In this document: positions 122 through 43,798 of the stretch, piece by piece
How the letters are laid out: each line of letters starts with the position of its first letter
Numbering within the stretch: position 1 is the stretch's first letter
Sequence record: NC_041874.1
Length of the DNA stretch: 49,628 nt
Origin: Escherichia phage JMPW1
Direction: 5' to 3' (one strand)
The notes under the pieces: model-generated
What the model was told of the DNA's origin: nothing
What the model saw: only the letters and a program-made list of their open reading frames with translations
Database searches by the model: none
Translations under genes and position numbers: made by a program

Positions 122-136
122 CGATTACACTTTACC

Positions 137-165
137 TTGTCACAGATGTAATATTTGTCTAGAAT
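137..165 (+). promoter_or_regulatory. Sigma70-type promoter TTGTCA-17 bp-TAGAAT
   Basis: -35 TTGTCA at 137-142, 17-nt spacer, -10 TAGAAT at 160-165, read directly. Confidence 0.5.
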
Positions 166-225
166 CGCACTTGTGACAAAATTACACACTGTGACGCCTC
201 TAAATATACATATAGATATATGTAT

Positions 226-242
226 CTATATAATATATATAG
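226..242. repeat. 17-bp AT-rich motif CTATATAATATATATAG, copy 1 (exact second copy at 30755-30771)
   Basis: Identical 17-mer read in both AT-rich control regions. Confidence 0.7.
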
Positions 243-524
243 TGTTTTCTTTATTTATATATATAGATAATTATATTGTAATAGTTGTGTATAGTTGTCT
301 TACATTGTCTAGCGTACTGTTGGCATATTTCTATCTGCATGTTTATATATACAGTACTTTTTTGAGAGCTATATATTTCTATAGTGACTCTAGACAGCTA
401 GACAAATGTTACACAGCTTAATATCGGCTCGCAGTCATTGACAGCTCTGTATCGCACTGTCACAATGTCAATTGTTGACACATTATGACGCCATTTACAC
501 ACGAATAGACAAAGAGGATATATT

Positions 525-1040
525 ATGAGCAATACCAATCAGGAATTAAAAATCACCGATATGATTCGACTAACCTGCGATGCAATGTATCGCGACAAAG
601 GCATGAATGAGTTCTCTTTCGTGGCTGATGATATGGCCCTCGAGGCCGCGCGATTCTACTTCCGTGACCAGGAGGTAAGTGATAGCGATCTTGAATCTGC
701 CGCTGCCGGATGGGTGGACCAGAACCAGGGTGAGGTGGAGAAGCGATTCAAGTCTGCTTTCATTACGCCAATCATTACCCGGCACTTTTGCAAGTATGGC
801 AAGGTGGCAAAGGTGAAGGTAGGCCGGAATGACGCTGCAATCACAATGATAACGGTTATCGTTACCGACGAAGAGATTCCCGTGAAGAAGCGCCGCAGTC
901 GGAAGAAAGTTAGCCTGGCCGATTGCCTGGATTCGTTTGTGGTTGATGTGGGTAAACTGGCTGATAGCGAATTGATGACTCGTGACGTAAACGAGATCGT
1001 TCGCCAGATGAAGGCGCATATCGAAAAGTGTGGACTGTAA
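525..1040 (+). CDS. hypothetical early protein (171 aa)
   Basis: ORF with RBS AAAGAGGA 9 nt upstream of ATG; first gene after left control region. Confidence 0.6.
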   Translation: MSNTNQELKITDMIRLTCDAMYRDKGMNEFSFVADDMALEAARFYFRDQEVSDSDLESAAAGWVDQNQGEVEKRFKSAFITPIITRHFCKYGKVAKVKVGRNDAAITMITVIVTDEEIPVKKRRSRKKVSLADCLDSFVVDVGKLADSELMTRDVNEIVRQMKAHIEKCGL

Positions 1041-1054
1041 GCACTGAGCGGTAA

Positions 1055-1104
1055 ATAGCACTTTTTGTTAAAACCGGATCGGGATAACGCGGTATAGTTA
1101 TCCC
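1055..1104 (+). promoter_or_regulatory. Early promoter cassette: box + inverted repeat GGGATAAC/GTTATCCC enclosing -10 TATAGT
   Basis: Box ATAGCACTTTTTGTTAAAAC at 1055-1074; IR 1081-1104; -10 at 1093-1098. Confidence 0.6.
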
Positions 1105-1326: not shown

Positions 1327-1797
1327 ATGACAACCATTACCGTATTTCTGGCTAAAGATGAGATTGATGGCGAAATGTCATTCTTCGCATTTGAGCACAA
1401 AACCGGATCGCACTGGCATATGTATAGCCGCTACACGGTTATCGATATCAACTCATACCGCGCAGGCTCACTTACTGAAAAGCTGGGTTGCTTCATTGGA
1501 GCTATCAAGGTGAACAATGGCTGCGAGTGGGCAGATGAGCACGAAGAGCGCCGCATGTGCAATATGATTAACCCGGTCTATCTTGAGTCGTTCGAGCTTG
1601 ATGCTGATGTGAACATTAAGGTGAGAAAGTCTGGTGAGTTATTGCCAGGGATGCGTGTGCTGACTGGTTACTCGGGCCGTAAGGTGTGGCGCACCGTATC
1701 GAAGATTCGCCAGCGTTCTGCAACATGCTACAGCGTATTCTTTGAAGATGGCTGGAATATGATGTCCGGTAGTGAGGTGAAGTATCTCACCAAATAG
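1327..1797 (+). CDS. hypothetical protein (156 aa)
   Basis: ORF; its TAG stop is the TAG of the next box. Confidence 0.55.
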   Translation: MTTITVFLAKDEIDGEMSFFAFEHKTGSHWHMYSRYTVIDINSYRAGSLTEKLGCFIGAIKVNNGCEWADEHEERRMCNMINPVYLESFELDADVNIKVRKSGELLPGMRVLTGYSGRKVWRTVSKIRQRSATCYSVFFEDGWNMMSGSEVKYLTK

Positions 1798-1843
1798 CAC
1801 GAATTGTTAAAACCGGATCGGGGTATCTTGCTATAGTTACCCC
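1794..1843 (+). promoter_or_regulatory. Early promoter cassette: box + IR GGGGTA/TACCCC enclosing -10 TATAGT
   Basis: Box ATAGCACGAATTGTTAAAAC 1794-1813; IR 1820-1843; CCAATCAGAGGA RBS follows. Confidence 0.6.
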
Positions 1844-1875: not shown

Positions 1876-2106
1876 ATGTCAATCGTCAAGAACCAGCAAG
1901 CAATCGATTAAACCAATAACAACCGCTTTGCTATTTTCATCACATCGATAGGTCGCCGATTTGCAGTCAAAGCCGTTCCGGGTGGATACAAAACCTACAT
2001 GGAAGATAAAGGAAAGTGGGTGTGGTGCGAAAACCTTGCAAACTTCCTAGTCTGGAATGCAGACCTCCAGGGCTTTGATGATATCAGCACCTTAATTGAG
2101 GAATAA
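1876..2106 (+). pseudogene. Small gene with in-frame TAA at codon 12 (1909-1911); frame continues open to 2106
   Basis: ATG 1876 sits behind a full cassette and RBS; same frame reopens after TAA and runs to TAA at 2104-2106. Confidence 0.3.
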
Positions 2107-2112
2107 ATAATT

Positions 2113-2340
2113 ATGCCACGTTACAATAAACAGACTAAACTCACCCGCGTAAACGGGCACATGATTCCGGCTGAATCCACTCACTACGCAATGGGCGCAA
2201 AGCACGGAGTCTATTTCAAGTGGCGCGGTCAATGGAACTTCACGGCGGTTAGTAATTTCTACATGCGCGTCCCAGGTATTGACCCGCAGACGGTCGTAGA
2301 GGACTCAATCGGCAACAACAAGATCGAGGTGCTAAAATGA
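2113..2340 (+). CDS. hypothetical protein (75 aa)
   Basis: ORF with RBS GAGGAATAAATAATTATG. Confidence 0.5.
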   Translation: MPRYNKQTKLTRVNGHMIPAESTHYAMGAKHGVYFKWRGQWNFTAVSNFYMRVPGIDPQTVVEDSIGNNKIEVLK

Positions 2341-2447
2341 ACTTCAATACAATTGCTTTATGGTCTGCCGTCTGGTTCTTCTGTATGGGTCATGTCATGG
2401 TTGGAATCGTAGTTATGCTGCTACTGTGTGCGGGAGCGTTCGAATGA
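2337..2447 (+). CDS. putative small hydrophobic membrane peptide (36 aa)
   Basis: ATG overlaps upstream stop (ATGA); translation MNFNTIALWSAVWFFCMGHVMVGIVVMLLLCAGAFE is one TM-like segment. Confidence 0.35.
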   Translation: MNFNTIALWSAVWFFCMGHVMVGIVVMLLLCAGAFE

Positions 2448-2617
2448 TGCGCATTCTGATTTGCATGATGGCGGCGGTCGCACTGGCTATCCTGGTAGTG
2501 TCCGGCTGCGGAGAGGCCAAAGAGCGATGCCATGAAACCGGAAACCAGGTTACTACTTTCGTGATGGTTGGCAACGTATTGCTACCAATCACATCAAATG
2601 AAATCACTTGCGAATAG
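2444..2617 (+). CDS. putative small lipoprotein (57 aa)
   Basis: Signal-peptide-like N-terminus ending in lipobox LVVSGC; start overlaps stop of preceding peptide. Confidence 0.4.
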   Translation: MMRILICMMAAVALAILVVSGCGEAKERCHETGNQVTTFVMVGNVLLPITSNEITCE

Positions 2618-2626
2618 GATGTTAAA

Positions 2627-2818
2627 ATGGCTGATTTTATGCACCAAATGATTGCAGTATTCAAAGGTAGTGATGACCAGGAGGTGAAAGAGTGCTTTAC
2701 TGTAGACAAGCCTTATAGCGCATCGCTAACCAGCTTCGGGAATATCTCATTGCTTGATGATAACGGCGACCCCTGGGTATTCGACGAAGACACTGATTGC
2801 TTCGAAATTAAAGAATAG
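2627..2818 (+). CDS. small highly acidic protein (63 aa)
   Basis: ORF rich in D/E; stop TAG shared with next box. Confidence 0.5.
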   Translation: MADFMHQMIAVFKGSDDQEVKECFTVDKPYSASLTSFGNISLLDDNGDPWVFDEDTDCFEIKE

Positions 2819-2864
2819 CACTTTTTGTTAAAACTCAATATCGGGGTTGCGCTATAGTAACCCC
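2815..2864 (+). promoter_or_regulatory. Early promoter cassette: box + IR GGGGTT/AACCCC enclosing -10 TATAGT
   Basis: Box 2815-2834; IR 2843-2864; -10 2853-2858. Confidence 0.6.
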
Positions 2865-2889: not shown

Positions 2890-3378
2890 ATGAAAATCAA
2901 ATTGCTTTGCACTGGCGGTTACAAGGGCTTTACTCGCGACCTGGAAGCGGATCCTATCGTGATTGATGCGGTGAAGTGTGATGATAGCCTCGGCGGCTAC
3001 CGCGTGAAGGTTGACGACCTGGTGAAAGCTGGCGTGTACGATCTGGGCTATGGACTTTCGGTTAGCCCGGTAGTTGGTCCGGCAGACTTCAACGAGAAGG
3101 ATGGAACGATGTTCTTCTTCGAATGGGAAGTCCAGGCAAATCCTAAGCCGCGCAAGGTTCGTCTTCTCAGTAATGGCGGCTACCCGATGCGTCCAGGTTA
3201 TGAGAATCGCACATTCCCGGTTATCGTTGACTTTGAAGAAATCACCGCACACTTAGCTTATATCAACGGTGAACAGCTTCATGCTGTTGGATTCGTGGGA
3301 TGTATGAATCAAGAGGCGCTATGCTTCTTCCATTGTAAAGCCGAGCCGTTCGATATTGAGTGCGAGTTAGTATACTAA
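2890..3378 (+). CDS. hypothetical protein (162 aa)
   Basis: ORF after cassette; stop TAA is first codon of next box (TAAGCAC). Confidence 0.55.
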   Translation: MKIKLLCTGGYKGFTRDLEADPIVIDAVKCDDSLGGYRVKVDDLVKAGVYDLGYGLSVSPVVGPADFNEKDGTMFFFEWEVQANPKPRKVRLLSNGGYPMRPGYENRTFPVIVDFEEITAHLAYINGEQLHAVGFVGCMNQEALCFFHCKAEPFDIECELVY

Positions 3379-3423
3379 GCACGAATTGTTAAAAGGGGAT
3401 TTGGCCTGACTGGTATAATCCCC
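3376..3423 (+). promoter_or_regulatory. Early promoter cassette: box + IR GGGGAT/ATCCCC enclosing -10 TATAAT
   Basis: Box TAAGCACGAATTGTTAAAA 3376-3394; IR 3395-3423; -10 3414-3419. Confidence 0.6.
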
Positions 3424-4392: not shown

Positions 4393-4663
4393 GTTAAAAA
4401 TCGCCCCGATACATTTCATTGGTGTAATGAACGGAACCAAAACGGCAGAGTTCCGCATCAATGACCGCAACTTCCAGGTTGGTGATATCCTTGAGCTACG
4501 CGAGTTCGATCGTGACGACTTTACCGGGTGGGAAGTTCACGCCAGGGTGTCCGATGTTACAGACGTGACGCCATACATCAATCGCGGTTATGACGAGCAA
4601 GAATGCGACTTCACGCAATACGTGATGTTATCAATCAAGCCTTACAGGAAGGTTAGACCATGA
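4376..4663 (+). CDS. ASCH/DUF3850-like (PUA-fold) small protein (95 aa)
   Basis: Motif GTKTAEFRINDRNFQVGD recalled as typical of DUF3850/ASCH proteins. Confidence 0.4.
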   Translation: MSKTHKLKIAPIHFIGVMNGTKTAEFRINDRNFQVGDILELREFDRDDFTGWEVHARVSDVTDVTPYINRGYDEQECDFTQYVMLSIKPYRKVRP

Positions 4664-5298
4664 AATTTGAGTGCGTATCAAGTAGCGGATCTGGTTTTAA
4701 GTGGGGAAAAACTTACAAAGGTGTTCGCGTAAATGATGACAGCTTCATCATTACTGATGAGAACGGTTGCAACGTGAACGTTGTACGGCGTCACGAATAT
4801 CAGGAAATTTTCCTGCCTTATGGCGGTAGCTCAAAATATATCTTCCATCGAATCGTGGATGGTGTTAAATTTAACGACGTAATCGAAGCAATCAACCAAC
4901 TGCATAATAAAGAGGTAAAATTTATGAAATTCGAATGTATCAGCGACAACACTAAAAAATTTACCGTTGGAAAAATTTACAACGTTCCTTCTGAGCACGC
5001 TAAGCACACTTTAGCGCTGACCGACGACACAGGCTGCCAACGCATTGCAACCGTGACGCACAATGGCGAAGGTCTTCGCTGGAACAGCGGCGGCACTAAG
5101 TTCGCAACTTTCGGTAAGAAGCGCAAGCGCAATTTCCGCGTCAACGGCAAGATCAACACCAGCAAGATTAGCAACGTCAAGCCTATTAATGTTGACCACA
5201 AGCCAGAGCTTGATCTTAAAGGCAAGGTGGATATTCCTGATATGGCTTTAGCGATCCTTATTCTTGTTGCTCTAATTTCTATCATGCTCATCATGTAA
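4660..5298 (+). CDS. tandem-domain protein with C-terminal TM anchor (212 aa)
   Basis: Two internal repeats both starting MKFEC..; hydrophobic C-terminus; member of dispersed paralog family. Confidence 0.55.
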   Translation: MKFECVSSSGSGFKWGKTYKGVRVNDDSFIITDENGCNVNVVRRHEYQEIFLPYGGSSKYIFHRIVDGVKFNDVIEAINQLHNKEVKFMKFECISDNTKKFTVGKIYNVPSEHAKHTLALTDDTGCQRIATVTHNGEGLRWNSGGTKFATFGKKRKRNFRVNGKINTSKISNVKPINVDHKPELDLKGKVDIPDMALAILILVALISIMLIM

Positions 5299-5339: not shown

Positions 5340-5446
5340 GGAGAAAACACTATGCCAGACTTTTCTAACTGGAATAACGAGCCGCCATCATTTCAGGAGT
5401 TGCTATTCTGCCTCCTGGTCCTGACATTATCTCTTAAGGGTGTTTT

Positions 5447-5665
5447 ATGGCTACTATCATAACAGCAGAAGATGCAGCACGCGACGCAGTGGAAGGAATG
5501 CGCCCAAATACCTCCAGAATAGCACACTACTACAAATCTGAGGTGTCGGCAGTGCAATTGGTCAACGAAATTTTAAGGCTACCACAAGTCGATTCAGCGC
5601 GCGTGGTGACGTGCTTAAAAAATTATTTTTGCATCGCTATTAAAACGAATAGCACGAATTGCTAA
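5447..5665 (+). CDS. hypothetical protein (72 aa)
   Basis: ORF; stop TAA lies inside next box. Confidence 0.3.
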   Translation: MATIITAEDAARDAVEGMRPNTSRIAHYYKSEVSAVQLVNEILRLPQVDSARVVTCLKNYFCIAIKTNSTNC

Positions 5666-6972: not shown

Positions 6973-7545
6973 ATGAAAACAGCTATCATTTTAAACGGTG
7001 CGCCTGGCGCGGGAAAAGACACTATAGGGTGCATCCTGGCTGACACTTACGATCATGTAGCGCTACGCAGCTTTAAAGCTCCAATGTTTGAGATTGCCCG
7101 AGCAATCCTGGGTGAGACTAATTTTGAGTATTTCATGTTCTTGTATGAGGACCGTCGCTATAAAGAAGAGCCAGCATCAATCCTGAACGGTAAAAGCCCG
7201 CGCCAGTTTATGATCTGGATTAGCGAGGAGGTTATCAAGCCGCAGTTCGGAAATCGCTTCTTCGGTATGCGAGCGGAAAGCAAGGTGAAAGAGTCTCACT
7301 CCCTTTCGGTATTTACTGACGGTGGATTCAAAGACGAAATCTTGCAGATGATTGAAGGTGAAATCCAGGTCAAGCTATGTCGAATCCATCGCAACGGTTG
7401 CAACTTTGACAACGACAGTCGCGACTACATCTATCTTGACGATATGATCGGGGTCAACGGTTATCAGGAATGTGACTTCTTCTCTGTCGAAGGTCATCCA
7501 GAAATTACCGCTCAGCACATAGCCGCCACGTTCATCAACAAATAG
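6973..7545 (+). CDS. P-loop kinase, deoxynucleoside monophosphate kinase-like
   Basis: Walker A GAPGAGKDT and LNGKSP motif resembling phage T4 gp1 dNMP kinase (from memory). Confidence 0.55.
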   Translation: MKTAIILNGAPGAGKDTIGCILADTYDHVALRSFKAPMFEIARAILGETNFEYFMFLYEDRRYKEEPASILNGKSPRQFMIWISEEVIKPQFGNRFFGMRAESKVKESHSLSVFTDGGFKDEILQMIEGEIQVKLCRIHRNGCNFDNDSRDYIYLDDMIGVNGYQECDFFSVEGHPEITAQHIAATFINK

Positions 7546-7589
7546 CACGAATTGCTAAAACGTCGGTGGGGTGACTTGATATAGTTACC
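7542..7589 (+). promoter_or_regulatory. Early promoter cassette: box + imperfect IR enclosing extended -10 TGATATAGT
   Basis: Box 7542-7561; IR about 7568-7589; -10 7580-7585. Confidence 0.55.
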
Positions 7590-30343: not shown

Positions 30344-30366
30344 GCCCCTTGCGGGGCTTTTCTTTT
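30343..30366 (+). terminator. intrinsic terminator ending late operon
   Basis: AGCCCC-TTGC-GGGGCT then TTTCTTTT. Confidence 0.65.
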
Positions 30367-30592
30367 ATATCGAGCAATCGTGAGACTTGAAGTTTTTCTC
30401 TGATACGTAGTTGAATGAGAATGGGTATCCAGCACGCAATAGCATCTCCTCTCCGCGCATCTTAGATCCAAAAACGTAAACCGAGTACTCTGCGCCTCCT
30501 GATTCATAAATTGCCGTACAAGTGCGCTCAGGCATCGATGAGCAACCAGTCAGGATGAATGCCGCAGCGATAATGGTGATTAACTTTTTCAT
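30365..30592 (-). CDS. small lipoprotein, candidate superinfection-exclusion protein (Cor/Llp-like)
   Basis: Signal peptide ending in lipobox LTGC; lone reverse-strand gene downstream of tail genes; own sigma70 promoter. Confidence 0.45.
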   Translation of the reverse strand: MKKLITIIAAAFILTGCSSMPERTCTAIYESGGAEYSVYVFGSKMRGEEMLLRAGYPFSFNYVSEKNFKSHDCSI

Positions 30593-40099: not shown

Positions 40100-40347
40100 T
40101 GAACGAGAAAATGATTCCGGTTAAGTTAACTGATCAAGGTTTATGGCTGCTTTATCGAGCTACCTGCTGCGAAATTATGGAGCGAAACGGATTGACTCAG
40201 GATGTTATTGGTTGCGATCTGTGGGAGTTCACTAGTTCTCTTGATATGTCTTTCGATGAGATAAAAAATGAATACATAGAGAATTGGCCTTCAATCATAC
40301 AGAAAGACGTGGAAGAACTTAAAGCTGATACAATCGTACAGCACTAA
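40096..40347 (+). CDS. hypothetical protein (83 aa)
   Basis: Overlapping start; stop TAA embedded in next box. Confidence 0.5.
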   Translation: MMNEKMIPVKLTDQGLWLLYRATCCEIMERNGLTQDVIGCDLWEFTSSLDMSFDEIKNEYIENWPSIIQKDVEELKADTIVQH

Positions 40348-40381
40348 TTGCTAAAAATACCCGACGAAAGTCGGGTATAGT
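40338..40381 (+). promoter_or_regulatory. Promoter cassette: box + perfect hairpin ACCCGAC-GAAA-GTCGGGT + -10 TATAGT
   Basis: Box 40338-40357; IR 40359-40376; -10 40376-40381. Confidence 0.6.
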
Positions 40382-42909: not shown

Positions 42910-43397
42910 TGAGCTTAAAAAATAACGTTATAGGCGCATCGATCGGGGCTGCTTTGACGTTGACGCCTACCCTGCTGGAACGAATCGAAGGGATAGAATA
43001 CGAGGTGTATTACGATATAGCCGGAGTCCCTACCGTATGCAGCGGAATAACCGGGCCGGACGTCATACCTGGTAAGAAATACACTAAGCGAGAATGCGAT
43101 GCATTGCTGATAAAACATATCGGCGTCGCTCAGCGATACGTTGACAAAAAGGTGAATGTTGATATTCCGGTAACGATGCGCGCGTCACTGTACAGCTTCA
43201 CTTTCAACGTCGGTACTGGCGCGTTCGGATCTTCTACAATGCTTAAGCTAATAAATCAGAGTAAGCACAAGGAAGCGTGCAATCAGTTATGGCGATGGGT
43301 ATACTACTACAACCCAAAAACCAAAAAGCGCGAAGTGTCTAGAGGACTAAAGAACCGACGCGCTGAAGAATACGCGTATTGCGTTAAGGAATTATGA
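42909..43397 (+). CDS. endolysin, lysozyme with N-terminal SAR-like signal-anchor
   Basis: [19 protein letters not shown] and VDIP...RASLYSF.FNVGTG.F resemble phage P21 R lysozyme (from memory); hydrophobic Gly/Ala-rich N-terminus. Confidence 0.8.
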
Positions 43398-43798
43398 TGA
43401 AACTGAAGAAAACGTGCATTGCGATTGCAGTGGCTGTTGGCGTTATTTCCCTATCCGGTTGTTCGACGGCATCTGCCCTGAGCGGTTTAATCGGATCTAA
43501 ACCGGAAGTTACAGCACAAATCGGAGAGGAGAACACAAAGCAATTAGCAGGAGTAACCGCAAAATCCGAAGATAAGCGAGATGTTAAAGTTGAGAAGTCC
43601 AATGTAGGAAAGATTGACTCTTCCTTGAAGAAGTCAATTGAAGTGTCAACCATTAAGGCTAACACGGTTAACGCTGAAAGCATCACAGTAACAAAACCGG
43701 AAAACTGGTACGATGCTATCGTTGGCTGGATTCTCGTTTTTATCGGTCTATTGCTGGTTTATTTTTCACTTCGTAAGGACGAAAAAAAGGAGGCTTAG
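43394..43798 (+). CDS. unimolecular spanin (u-spanin)
   Basis: N-terminal lipoprotein signal with lipobox LSGC plus C-terminal TM segment; overlaps endolysin stop. Confidence 0.6.

What the first reader, a model, noticed from the sequence alone, without database searches (positions are those of the whole stretch)
2337..2617. Translationally coupled tiny membrane peptide and lipoprotein pair
A 36-aa hydrophobic peptide (2337-2447, start overlaps the upstream stop) is followed, with overlapping stop and start (TGATG), by a 57-aa protein with a lipobox (VVSGC) at 2444-2617. Both are below the ORF-track cutoff. Small membrane peptide plus lipoprotein pairs in phage early regions often mediate superinfection exclusion, receptor masking or lysis timing.
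Basis: partly seen in the sequence, partly recalled or inferred. Interest (0 to 1): 0.45.

Follow-up and report, generated by a model that had tools for sequence, protein, structure and literature searches.

The report
T1 phage membrane-peptide and mini-lipoprotein genes
Two tiny, overlapping genes of a T1-like coliphage are real and conserved, encoding a 36-residue membrane peptide and a 57-residue lipoprotein precursor whose exported part is predicted to be one long beta-hairpin; they were already annotated as hypothetical proteins, the phage can lose them, and their function is still unknown.

Summary
Window 2337-2447 and 2444-2617 are T1 ORF73 and ORF72 (phi2013 Gp04/Gp05). Across 14 Tunavirus genomes both show purifying selection (dN/dS 0.08 and 0.12; other frames at least 1), no indels, invariant ATGA overlaps and Shine-Dalgarno sites. 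ORF73 is a 36-aa single-pass membrane peptide. ORF72 passes lipoprotein rules (R3, hydrophobic core, VSGC), leaving a 36-residue mature peptide that AlphaFold2 folds as one long hairpin flanked by two conserved cysteines.

New here: ORF72 belongs to a small phage-only family (phrog_8628, phrog_15073) with relatives on actinophage-like contigs and, probably, in Streptomyces phages.

The functional reading is untested and partly disfavoured. The phage already carries Cor and a u-spanin elsewhere. The family occurs where there is no FhuA, Lol pathway or Gram-negative outer membrane. A TM-peptide neighbour is not conserved across the family, and each gene persists without the other. Four-base overlaps are routine here (10 of 78 junctions). 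ORF72 is frameshifted, deleted or lipobox-mutated in several isolates, so it is accessory.

Best guess, with low confidence: an envelope-acting accessory factor that blocks a post-receptor step of phage genome entry. Interest is modest.

The parts
1795..1837 (+). Upstream boundary of the transcription unit: T1-type direct-repeat, promoter-like element TAGCACGAATTGTTAAAA-N19-TATAGT
   Evidence: The pattern has 24 copies in the window against 0.58 expected. The TTAAAA-N19-TATAGT form has 6 copies against 0.31 expected. The same repeat is published for TLS and T1 (PMC11447400). No + strand terminator-like site lies between 1800 and 2830.
2113..2340 (+). ORF74 homolog (75 aa, DUF7274), first intact gene of the unit; its stop overlaps the ORF73 start
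   Evidence: Pfam PF23939, 139.8 bits; dN/dS 0.15; found only in T1-like phages.
2326..2330 (+). Shine-Dalgarno GAGGT for ORF73, 6 nt before the ATG
   Evidence: Read from the sequence; conserved in 14 genomes.
2337..2447 (+). ORF73: 36-aa single-pass inner-membrane peptide (T1 ORF73, phi2013 Gp04, phrog_25570)
   Evidence: GRAVY 1.61 and best 19-residue hydropathy window 2.46; dN/dS 0.08; 54 phage records, all Tunavirus; T1 annotation 'single transmembrane domain'.
2432..2436 (+). Shine-Dalgarno GGGAG for ORF72, inside the ORF73 coding sequence, 7 nt before the ATG
   Evidence: Read from the sequence. Variants GGAG or GGGG occur in relatives.
2444..2617 (+). ORF72: 57-aa prolipoprotein (T1 ORF72, phi2013 Gp05, phrog_8628)
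   Evidence: dN/dS 0.12; 53 phage records; 22 clusters among 5.8 billion proteins.
2444..2506 (+). Predicted type II signal peptide (residues 1-21: n-region MMR, h-region ILICMMAAVALAILVV)
   Evidence: Passes PS00013 and G+LPPv2; AlphaFold2 helix 2-20; dN/dS 0.11.
2498..2509 (+). Lipobox V-S-G-C; Cys22 becomes the lipidated N-terminus and Gly at +2 predicts outer-membrane sorting in E. coli
   Evidence: Exceptions: C22F in DELF2, G21V in SH6, Asp at +2 in IME18, and no Cys in P0020 and P0037.
2528..2611 (+). Cys29-to-Cys56 segment: predicted long beta-hairpin (strands 29-42 and 45-56, turn G43-N44 at 2570-2575) with a hydrophobic tip FVMVGNVLLPI
   Evidence: AlphaFold2 model. The same hairpin is predicted for the remote homolog P0034 at pLDDT 89-93. 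G43, P48, E53 and C56 are invariant across lineages.
2627..2818 (+). 63-aa gene (phi2013 Gp06, phrog_11551), last gene of the unit; absent from T1
   Evidence: dN/dS 0.11.
2816..2858 (+). Next direct-repeat, promoter-like element, marking the downstream boundary of the unit

Best explanation
SHOWN: 2337-2447 and 2444-2617 are two genuine, co-oriented, overlapping protein-coding genes of a Tunavirus (T1 ORF73 and ORF72). They lie in one short unit (ORF74-ORF73-ORF72-gp06) bracketed by two T1-type promoter-like repeats. They are under purifying selection, yet ORF72 is repeatedly lost in individual isolates, so it is accessory. ORF72 belongs to a small, phage-only family of mini-lipoproteins that reaches actinophage-like contigs. 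INFERRED FROM SEQUENCE AND ESTABLISHED PATHWAYS: ORF73 inserts as a single-pass inner-membrane peptide. [quoted passage not shown] The mature 36-residue lipopeptide is a 6-residue tether followed by a roughly 28-residue beta-hairpin. The hairpin has a hydrophobic tip (FVMVGNVLLPI) and an acidic base flanked by Cys29 and Cys56, which DsbA would oxidise. MECHANISM I COMMIT TO (low confidence): the hairpin is an envelope-acting accessory factor made during infection. It pairs its exposed strand edge or hydrophobic tip with a partner in the periplasmic or extracytoplasmic space and blocks a post-receptor step of genome delivery by secondary phages. This would be superinfection exclusion of the Ltp, Imm or Sp type, complementary to Cor. 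It would not mask FhuA and would not act in lysis. ORF73 is a separate small membrane protein of the same operon that may cooperate with ORF72 but is not an obligate partner.
For: The genes are real and selected, and identified as T1 ORF73 and ORF72. Lipoprotein rules are met. UniRef labels a member 'Lipoprotein', and there are sub-threshold NCBIfam hits only to lipoprotein signal peptides. The hairpin is predicted twice, independently. Remote homologs keep their own lipobox, both cysteines and the T-x-Y-[VI]-M-x-G-x-[VM]-[LM]-[VI]-P-I motif. The mature domains alone give 44% identity with pairwise E = 3e-10. An actinophage context is supported by a neighbour that is 52% identical to Mycobacterium and Gordonia phage proteins, and by P0035 being 44% identical to Streptomyces phage Rowa gp47. 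A target shared across such different envelopes fits a phage-derived or generic target better than an E. coli outer-membrane receptor. Cor and the u-spanin already cover FhuA masking and outer-membrane disruption. The type of membrane tether varies (Asp at +2 in IME18; no lipobox in P0020 and P0037), so the exported hairpin is the constant feature, not outer-membrane residence. The accessory nature is shown by frameshifts, a deletion chimera on three contigs and the C22F and G21V variants. The family is phage-only: no copy in 5,426 E. coli genomes or in 185,579 species-representative genomes. Within this same phage lineage, Cor is also accompanied by membrane proteins (PMC13164509).
Against: No functional, expression or localisation data exist for either protein. 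Exclusion genes are often carried by prophages, whereas this family was found in no bacterial genome. The DSSP register of both models puts the two cysteines 2-3 residues out of register, so an intramolecular staple needs a bulge or the bond is intermolecular; coordinates could not be read. 'Early' expression is inferred from position only. The link to the Streptomyces phage proteins is transitive: the direct profile comparison aligns only the signal peptide, and their hairpin tip is polar. Both models have low pTM (0.30 and 0.39). The same anatomy fits a host-directed inhibitor equally well.
Confidence: 0.3

Rival explanations
1. Host-envelope takeover. The exported hairpin binds a host envelope machine by strand pairing and alters host physiology during infection. 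Candidate targets in E. coli include a beta-jellyroll or lateral-gate protein of the Lpt or Bam systems, a peptidoglycan synthase or its regulator, or a secretion or insertion factor. ORF73 would modulate an inner-membrane protein, as many bacterial small membrane proteins do.
For: The disulfide-flanked hairpin with a hydrophobic tip is the shape used by known hairpin peptides that bind Lpt or Bam components (my own knowledge of thanatin and related peptides, not tested here). The genes sit among other early-type, host-directed genes, and Streptomyces phage relatives lie next to Ocr-like, ThyX and dCMP deaminase genes. The family is phage-only and confined to apparently lytic contexts. Several other small membrane proteins are encoded nearby.
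Against: Lpt and Bam do not exist in Streptomyces, so any target common to the family must be generic. The gene is easily lost without loss of viability. No homology to any known inhibitor was found.
Confidence: 0.25
2. Receptor masking of the Cor or Llp type. [quoted passage not shown]
For: It is a small phage lipoprotein with Gly at +2 and conserved cysteines. The precedent is Cor in T1 and Llp in T5 (PMC9586334 and PMC13164509).
Against: Cor is already present at 30365-30592. There is no similarity to Cor beyond the signal peptide and none to any PDB chain, Llp included. The gene is not next to the receptor-binding genes, where such exclusion genes sit in Drexlerviridae. Relatives occur in actinophage contexts. 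Outer-membrane sorting is not conserved.
Confidence: 0.08
3. Lysis-related function. The pair acts as a spanin-like or antiholin-like module, or ORF72 acts like a colicin-release lipoprotein that destabilises the outer membrane and so tunes lysis timing.
For: The arrangement superficially resembles Rz/Rz1: an inner-membrane protein gene overlapping a small lipoprotein gene, with conserved cysteines. The mature size (36 aa) is like Rz1 or the colicin lysis proteins (my own knowledge).
Against: The genes lie about 40 kb from the holin-endolysin-u-spanin cassette. ORF73 has no periplasmic domain that could reach a partner. ORF72 has a single proline and is not proline-rich. The phage already has the T1 gp11-type u-spanin. 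There is no family match.
Confidence: 0.07
4. ORF72 is not a lipoprotein in vivo. Its N-terminal helix stays as an uncleaved signal anchor, or is cut by signal peptidase I, so the hairpin is tethered to the inner membrane or is soluble in the periplasm. The lipobox would be incidental.
For: P0020 and P0037 lack the lipobox Cys but keep the hydrophobic N-terminus and both hairpin cysteines. DELF2 has C22F and SH6 has G21V. Within T1-like phages the signal-peptide region is as conserved as the mature part (dN/dS 0.11 against 0.13).
Against: S20, G21 and C22 are each conserved in at least 90% of members. Every remote lineage has its own independent lipobox: LAAC, VTGC, LAGC, LATGC, LLTGC, LLVGC. 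Both rule sets are passed.
Confidence: 0.1

Closest known systems
Cor (T1, phi80, N15, HK022) and Llp (T5, BF23) superinfection-exclusion lipoproteins
   Same: Small phage-encoded lipoproteins with a type II signal peptide, made by virulent siphophages, acting from the periplasmic side of the envelope. Llp has a conserved cysteine pair (my own knowledge).
   Different: No sequence relationship: the Cor model hits the window's own Cor but not ORF72, hhalign probability is 13% and covers only the signal peptide, and there is no PDB hit. The mature part is about half the size and is predicted as a single hairpin rather than a globular fold. The gene is not adjacent to the receptor-binding locus. 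Relatives occur where FhuA is absent.
Ltp of Streptococcus thermophilus phage TP-J34 (lipoprotein that blocks DNA injection)
   Same: A phage lipoprotein tethered on the outer face of the cytoplasmic membrane that excludes secondary phages after adsorption (PMC3952083, listed). This is a mode of action that could work in both monoderm and diderm hosts, as this family's distribution requires.
   Different: Ltp is larger, helical and prophage-expressed (my own knowledge). No homology was detected. This is a similarity of proposed mechanism only.
Rz/Rz1 two-component spanins and the T1 gp11 unimolecular spanin
   Same: An inner-membrane protein gene overlapping a very small outer-membrane lipoprotein gene, with a mature lipoprotein of about 36-40 residues and functionally important cysteines.
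   Different: Not in the lysis cassette. ORF73 lacks a periplasmic domain. ORF72 is not proline-rich. The phage has its own u-spanin at 43394-43798.
Colicin lysis (bacteriocin release) lipoproteins and entericidins
   Same: Among the smallest known lipoproteins, with mature peptides of roughly 20-35 residues that act on the envelope (my own knowledge).
   Different: No sequence similarity. Those are plasmid or chromosomal genes, are not predicted hairpins, and lack the Cys pair.
Disulfide-closed beta-hairpin peptides such as thanatin
   Same: A cysteine-flanked two-stranded hairpin that could bind a partner by strand pairing (a structural analogy from my own knowledge).
   Different: Those are secreted, cationic host-defence peptides of about 20 residues. 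ORF72 is acidic (net charge -3), lipid-anchored, longer and phage-encoded. No target was tested.
Small inner-membrane exclusion or regulatory proteins (T4 Imm, HK97 gp15, bacterial small membrane proteins), as a comparison for ORF73
   Same: A short hydrophobic phage or host peptide residing in the inner membrane.
   Different: ORF73 is much shorter (36 aa, essentially only a TM helix), has no detectable homologs outside Tunavirus and has no known activity.

Membership tests
Bacterial lipoprotein precursors (type II signal peptide substrates of Lgt, LspA and Lnt) | Positively charged n-region within the first 7 residues | tested here: met
   R3 is at least 90% conserved.
Bacterial lipoprotein precursors (type II signal peptide substrates of Lgt, LspA and Lnt) | Uncharged hydrophobic h-region of 7-22 residues followed by a lipobox [LVI][ASTVI][GAS]C, with the Cys at position 15-35 | tested here: met
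   I4-V18 followed by V-S-G-C22. PS00013 and G+LPPv2 are both true for the window and for 13 of 15 genome variants. Remote homologs have their own lipoboxes. Exceptions are C22F, G21V, P0020 and P0037.
Bacterial lipoprotein precursors (type II signal peptide substrates of Lgt, LspA and Lnt) | Lipid modification and globomycin-sensitive cleavage in vivo | not testable with these tools
   Needs palmitate labelling, globomycin treatment and a C22A mutant.
Cor phage exclusion lipoprotein (NCBIfam NF047972) | Match to the family model above its cutoff | tested here: not met
   ORF72 has no hit, whereas the window's 30365-30592 ORF scores 56 bits against a cutoff of 31. hhalign of ORF72 against Cor gives probability 13%, over the signal peptide only.
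Cor phage exclusion lipoprotein (NCBIfam NF047972) | Location downstream of the tail-tip and receptor-binding genes, together with two membrane-protein genes | tested here: not met
   ORF72 lies at 2.4 kb, upstream of the terminase. The Cor cassette lies about 28 kb away.
T5 Llp | Sequence or fold similarity to the solved Llp structure (FhuA-Llp complex) | tested here: not met
   The profile search of PDB sequences found nothing relevant (best E = 1.3, a NusG chain). Foldseek against the PDB gave no hit with E below 1.
Two-component spanin (Rz/Rz1 type) | Genes within or adjacent to the holin-endolysin lysis cassette | tested here: not met
   The lysis cassette is at about 42.6-43.8 kb in window coordinates (phi2013 Gp63-65).
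Two-component spanin (Rz/Rz1 type) | An i-spanin with an N-terminal TMD plus a long periplasmic coiled-coil domain | tested here: not met
   ORF73 is 36 aa, of which about 31 are hydrophobic.
Two-component spanin (Rz/Rz1 type) | An o-spanin lipoprotein with a proline-rich mature domain | tested here: not met
   The mature ORF72 has one proline in 36 residues.
phrog_8628 / phrog_15073 (uncharacterised phage protein families) | Significant match to the family profile | tested here: met
   ORF72 against phrog_8628: 2.5e-29. P0034 against phrog_15073: 7e-10, and against phrog_8628: 1.3e-6. Both families are annotated 'unknown function'.
phrog_25570 (ORF73) | Significant match to the family profile | tested here: met
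   3.4e-27 over the full length 1-36/36; function unknown.
Superinfection exclusion systems in general | Expression reduces productive infection by a secondary phage | not testable with these tools
   Needs plating-efficiency, adsorption and DNA-entry assays.

The most novel reading that the evidence does not exclude
ORF72 represents a phage-only family of genetically encoded, lipid-tethered, cysteine-flanked beta-hairpin peptides, conserved between phages of Enterobacteria and of Actinobacteria. The peptides would act by strand pairing with a target common to both settings. That target could be the membrane-inserting ejection apparatus (tape-measure channel) of incoming siphophages, or a universally conserved extracytoplasmic machine. 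This would make it a minimal, 28-residue exclusion or inhibitor module of a new structural type, with the adjacent tiny TM peptide as an optional inner-membrane co-factor.
Probability: 0.12. Interest if true: 0.7.

Novelty: new variant of a known kind. Interest (0 to 1): 0.32.

Why it matters
T1-like phages are classic laboratory contaminants and model siphophages, yet about half of their genes have no known function (PMC13164509). This work shows that two of the smallest T1 genes are genuine and selected. It also shows that one of them defines a compact, exported, cysteine-flanked hairpin lipopeptide family shared with actinophage-like sequences. If the hairpin blocks phage genome entry or a host envelope machine, it would be one of the smallest such effectors known. 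It would be easy to synthesise and a useful probe of envelope biology. If it has no such activity, it is simply one more dispensable small phage membrane protein. Its wide host distribution is the one handle that narrows the search for a target.

Tried and rejected
1. The alternative 85-aa reading frame starting at 2360 was rejected: dN/dS is 3.9, two genomes have stop codons, and T1 has no ATG.
2. A known-family assignment was not found. Pfam, NCBIfam and PADLOC gave nothing, and PHROGs gave only families of unknown function.
3. The Foldseek search of the ORF72 model against the PDB gave only noise, with all E above 1. The PDB sequence profile search also gave nothing.
4. Positional analogs via the upstream DUF7274 gene could not be reached, because that family is also restricted to T1-like phages.
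5. The idea that loss of the lipobox goes with loss of ORF73 (suggested by L017) was rejected, because lipobox-less P0037 still has ORF73 upstream.
6. Homology between ORF73 and the L035 41-aa TM peptide was not supported: there is no BLASTP alignment.
7. No chromosomal or prophage copies were found in E. coli genomes or in GTDB species genomes.
8. No overlapping RNA element was found: zero Rfam hits in the whole window.
9. A direct profile link between the T1-like and Streptomyces phage proteins was not significant beyond the signal peptide. The link is transitive only.
10. Host assignment for the L036 lineage failed: no nucleotide or protein match to cultured phages.
12. The literature searches I ran turned up no expression or function data for these genes, and the original T1 genome paper is not held.
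13. The Cys-Cys distance in the models could not be measured, because coordinates are not exposed.
Full report
IDENTITY OF THE WINDOW AND THE FINDING. The 1.6 kb around the finding is 99.9% identical to Escherichia phages phi2013, vB_EcoS_IME167, vB_Henu5_2 and JMPW2 (99.8%), and 87-92% identical to other Tunavirus members. The two ORFs are phi2013 Gp04 and Gp05. They correspond to T1 ORF73 (AAP49927, annotated 'single transmembrane domain predicted N-in and C-out') and ORF72 (AAP49928, hypothetical) from the 2004 T1 genome annotation. In T1 they lie inside the annotated 2.8-kb terminal repeat region. A 2026 study of KanT1, whose closest relative is phi2013, still lists both as 'hypothetical protein' after structure-informed annotation. 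UniRef labels the Shfl1 copy 'Lipoprotein'.

The sequences and coordinates are as stated. Across 14 aligned Tunavirus genomes there are no indels in 2337-2617. Variable sites fall at codon positions 1/2/3 as 10/4/22 in ORF73 and 9/9/37 in ORF72 (chi-square p = 9e-4 and 6e-7). Pooled dN/dS is 0.08 for ORF73 and 0.12 for ORF72 in the annotated frames, and 1.1-3.9 in the other two frames. The overlapping 85-aa frame starting at 2360 has stop codons in two genomes and TTG instead of ATG in T1. Both junctions are 4-nt ATGA overlaps: ORF74/ORF73 at 2337-2340 and ORF73/ORF72 at 2444-2447. Shine-Dalgarno sites precede both starts.

ORF72 passes the PROSITE PS00013 and G+LPPv2 lipoprotein rules in the window and in 13 of 15 distinct genome variants. 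The window has three lipobox ORFs against about 0.7 expected in shuffled sequence: ORF72, Cor and the u-spanin. No Rfam family overlaps the region.

THE TRANSCRIPTION UNIT. A conserved element, TAGCACnnnTTGnTAAAA, occurs 24 times in the window against 0.58 expected. In several copies it is followed after 19 nt by TATAGT. The same direct repeat has been described for TLS, T1 and Rtp, with its function unresolved: promoter, UP-like enhancer or 'stoperator' (PMC11447400). Copies at 1795 and 2816 bracket a unit containing a broken ORF75 homolog, ORF74 (DUF7274), ORF73, ORF72 and a 63-aa gene. No + strand terminator-like site lies inside it. Co-transcription and 'early' timing are inferences from this layout and from the position upstream of the terminase. 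I found no expression data.

WHAT THE PROTEINS LOOK LIKE. ORF73 is 36 aa with GRAVY 1.61, and residues 5-35 are hydrophobic. W9, W13, F14, F15, G18, H19 and the C-terminal LCAGAFE are conserved even in the most divergent copy.

ORF72 has an n-region (MMR), a 15-residue h-region and the lipobox VSGC. Cleavage would leave a 36-residue mature peptide, CGEAKERCHETGNQVTTFVMVGNVLLPITSNEITCE, with net charge -3. From established knowledge of the E. coli Lol pathway, Gly at +2 predicts outer-membrane sorting.

AlphaFold2 on a 20-sequence alignment gives a signal helix (2-20) and one long hairpin, with strands 29-42 and 45-56 and a G43-N44 turn (mean pLDDT 72.8, pTM 0.30). The hairpin tip (FVMVGNVLLPI) is hydrophobic and nearly invariant. 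The base (GEAKERCHETGN, SNEITCE) is polar and more variable.

Cys29 and Cys56 are conserved in nearly all members and sit at the open end of the hairpin. The DSSP register places them 2-3 residues out of register, however. An intramolecular disulfide would therefore need a bulge in the low-confidence first half of strand 1, or the bond could be intermolecular. I could not read coordinates to decide.

A WIDER, PREVIOUSLY UNNAMED FAMILY. Word-seeded searches found only 22 clusters, all T1-like. An exhaustive profile search of 1.84 billion representatives added three short proteins at E of about 5e-4. A mixed-profile search raised these to 1e-16 to 1e-19 and added more.

P0034, P0035, P0036 and P0039 each have their own lipobox (LAAC, VTGC, LAGC), both cysteines at matching spacing, and the motif T-x-Y-[VI]-M-x-G-x-[VM]-[LM]-[VI]-P-I...E-x-V-C. 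Using mature domains alone, ORF72 against P0034 gives 44% identity over 36 residues with pairwise E = 3e-10. The only hits of P0034 among 50,697 phage records are the Tunavirus ORF72 genes. P0034 matches phrog_15073 (7e-10) as well as ORF72's phrog_8628 (1.3e-6). AlphaFold2 on P0034 with a mixed alignment gives the same hairpin at pLDDT 89-93.

These relatives lie on phage-like contigs of 57-69% G+C, made of tightly packed small ORFs. The neighbour of P0034 is 52% identical to proteins of Mycobacterium and Gordonia phages. P0035 is 44% identical (E = 3e-12) to gp47 of the cultured Streptomyces phage Rowa. About 20 Streptomyces phages (Rowa, Euratis, Vanseggelen, Conan, the Endor and phiScoe series, and others) give weak hits over the mature domain. 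The three I fetched, Rowa, Vanseggelen and Conan, encode similar 59-67-aa lipoproteins: lipobox Cys, about five residues, Cys, a G-K/T turn, Cys, then D[EQ]YA. They sit among early-type genes such as ThyX, dCMP deaminase and an Ocr-like antirestriction protein.

The direct T1-like against Streptomyces profile comparison aligns only the signal peptide (probability 49%). I therefore treat that branch as probable distant relatives linked through intermediates, with a diverged and more polar hairpin tip. No member was found in 5,426 E. coli genomes or in species-representative genomes of 185,579 bacteria and archaea.

IS IT A FUNCTIONAL PAIR? The evidence is weak.
- 4-nt overlaps are routine in this genome: 10 of 78 junctions in phi2013, plus six 1-nt overlaps. 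ORF74/ORF73 is coupled in the same way.
- ORF73 stays intact where ORF72 is inactivated. vB_SsoS_008 has a frameshift after the lipobox. EF3-1 has a 4-nt insertion in a G-run. L041 carries a natural deletion that fuses ORF72 residues 1-37 to the C-terminal tail of the 212-aa protein, seen on three contigs.
- L017 has an ORF72 homolog directly after DUF7274 with no ORF73.
- Among remote lineages only L035 has a tiny TM peptide (41 aa) overlapping the lipoprotein start by 4 nt, and it has no detectable similarity to ORF73. In L034, L036, L040 and the Streptomyces phages the upstream genes are soluble, or another lipoprotein.
- The tentative link between lipobox loss and ORF73 loss failed, since P0037 lacks the lipobox but has ORF73.

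ACCESSORY STATUS AND VARIABLE TETHER. ORF72 is intact in about 52 of 55 Tunavirus records. Besides the frameshifts and the deletion above, DELF2 has C22F and SH6 has G21V. IME18 has Asp at +2, which is an inner-membrane retention signal in E. coli. P0020 and P0037 have no lipobox Cys yet keep the hydrophobic N-terminus and both hairpin cysteines. Several metagenomic alleles are frameshifted at the same ACC-GGA-AAC site. What stays constant is an exported hairpin, not outer-membrane residence.

WHAT IT IS NOT. It is not Cor. The window's Cor is at 30365-30592 on the minus strand (NF047972, 56 bits against a cutoff of 31; annotated 'super-infection exclusion protein' in phi2013), and ORF72 resembles it only in the signal peptide. 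It does not resemble Llp or any solved chain. It is not a spanin. The lysis cassette with a T1 gp11-type u-spanin (43394-43798) is about 40 kb away, ORF73 has no periplasmic domain, and ORF72 is not proline-rich. It matches no defence-system model.

MOST LIKELY MECHANISM. Only the gene structure, the selection, the family and its distribution are shown. Export, lipidation, sorting and disulfide formation follow from established pathways (Sec; Lgt, LspA and Lnt; Lol; DsbA) applied to the sequence. The activity is inference.

A family shared by phages of diderm Enterobacteria and of Actinobacteria, with a variable tether, points to a target that is generic or phage-derived rather than an E. coli outer-membrane receptor. 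Because this phage already masks FhuA with Cor, I favour exclusion at a post-receptor step, meaning interference with the incoming ejection or tape-measure apparatus or with membrane passage. This would resemble Ltp, Imm or Sp in action but not in ancestry. I put this at about 0.3.

A host-directed envelope inhibitor is nearly as likely (0.25). Receptor masking (0.08), a lysis role (0.07) and 'not lipidated in vivo' (0.1, orthogonal to the others) are less likely. The absence of the family from prophages and bacterial genomes is mild evidence against a classical exclusion gene.

NOVELTY AND SCORE. The ORFs and their TM and lipoprotein predictions were already in public annotation. New here are the codon-level proof that both are genuine genes, the hairpin architecture with its conserved cysteine pair, and the recognition of a cross-phylum, phage-only mini-lipoprotein family (phrog_8628 with phrog_15073). 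Also new is the evidence that the 'pair' is not an obligate module and that receptor masking or lysis roles are unlikely. This is a new structural variant of a known kind, namely small phage envelope lipoproteins and membrane peptides. Its function is unknown and it is clearly dispensable, so interest is modest.

Noticed in passing
window 1056-1098, 1795-1837, 2816-2858, 3377-3419, 7543-7585, 40339-40381, and 18 further copies listed: A conserved element of about 60 nt, TAGCAC-N3-TTG-nTAAAA-N19-TATAGT-nACCCC-ATCGA, occurs 24 times against 0.58 expected. It is already described as an unexplained direct repeat in TLS, T1 and Rtp (PMC11447400). An extra observation: an inverted repeat brackets the -10-like hexamer and covaries between copies (GGGATA/TATCCC, GGGGTA/TACCCC, GGGGTT/AACCCC; AAGGCCA/TGGCCTT in L017 at about 2030-2060). 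The 19-nt spacer is long for a sigma-70 promoter.
   Followed up: partly
window 1877-2106: The T1 ORF75 homolog is broken in this phage. A premature TAA after 11 codons (MSIVKNQQAID*, 1877-1912) leaves a 35-aa remnant ORF at 1999-2106. The gene is intact (76 aa) in T1, L017 and L041, and phi2013 leaves this stretch unannotated.
   Followed up: partly
window 30365-30592 (- strand): A bona fide Cor exclusion lipoprotein (NF047972, 56 bits) lies downstream of the tail-tip gene. The KanT1 paper reports that two membrane-protein genes accompany Cor in FhuA-using phages.
   Followed up: partly
window 43394-43798 (+ strand): A 134-aa lipobox protein ([23 protein letters not shown]...) follows the holin and endolysin genes. 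By position it is the T1 gp11-type unimolecular spanin.
   Followed up: no
window 5352-5462 and 5447-5665: This is a second example of the same layout. A 36-aa ORF with a hydrophobic stretch, at the position of T1 ORF67 (annotated single TMD, N-out C-in), overlaps the start of a 72-aa gene by 16 nt. The 212-aa protein at 4660-5298 also ends in a TM anchor and contains an internal duplication (MKFECVSSSG... and MKFECISDN...). The early region therefore encodes several small membrane proteins.
   Followed up: no
L041 2501-2812 (protein P0038; also L042): A natural deletion variant of a T1-like phage fuses ORF72 residues 1-37 in frame to the C-terminal TM tail of the 212-aa protein homolog. This removes the second hairpin strand and about five genes. 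It is seen on three contigs.
   Followed up: partly
window 130-530: An AT-rich, low-complexity stretch at the left end holds five of the twelve sigma-70-like promoter matches found in the first 6 kb (first hexamers at 137, 205, 348, 438 and 496). It may be an early promoter cluster or a pac-proximal region.
   Followed up: no
L035 462-981: In the actinophage-like contig, three consecutive overlapping small TM-protein genes (52, 81 and 41 aa) precede the ORF72-like lipoprotein gene. This looks like a membrane-protein mini-operon.
   Followed up: no
ORF72 residues 1-17 (window 2444-2494): Within T1-like phages the signal-peptide region is as conserved as the mature domain (dN/dS 0.11 against 0.13). 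ILICMMAAVA is retained even in the lipobox-less P0020. This is unusual for a signal peptide and may reflect a retained anchor function or nucleotide-level constraints from translational coupling.
   Followed up: no
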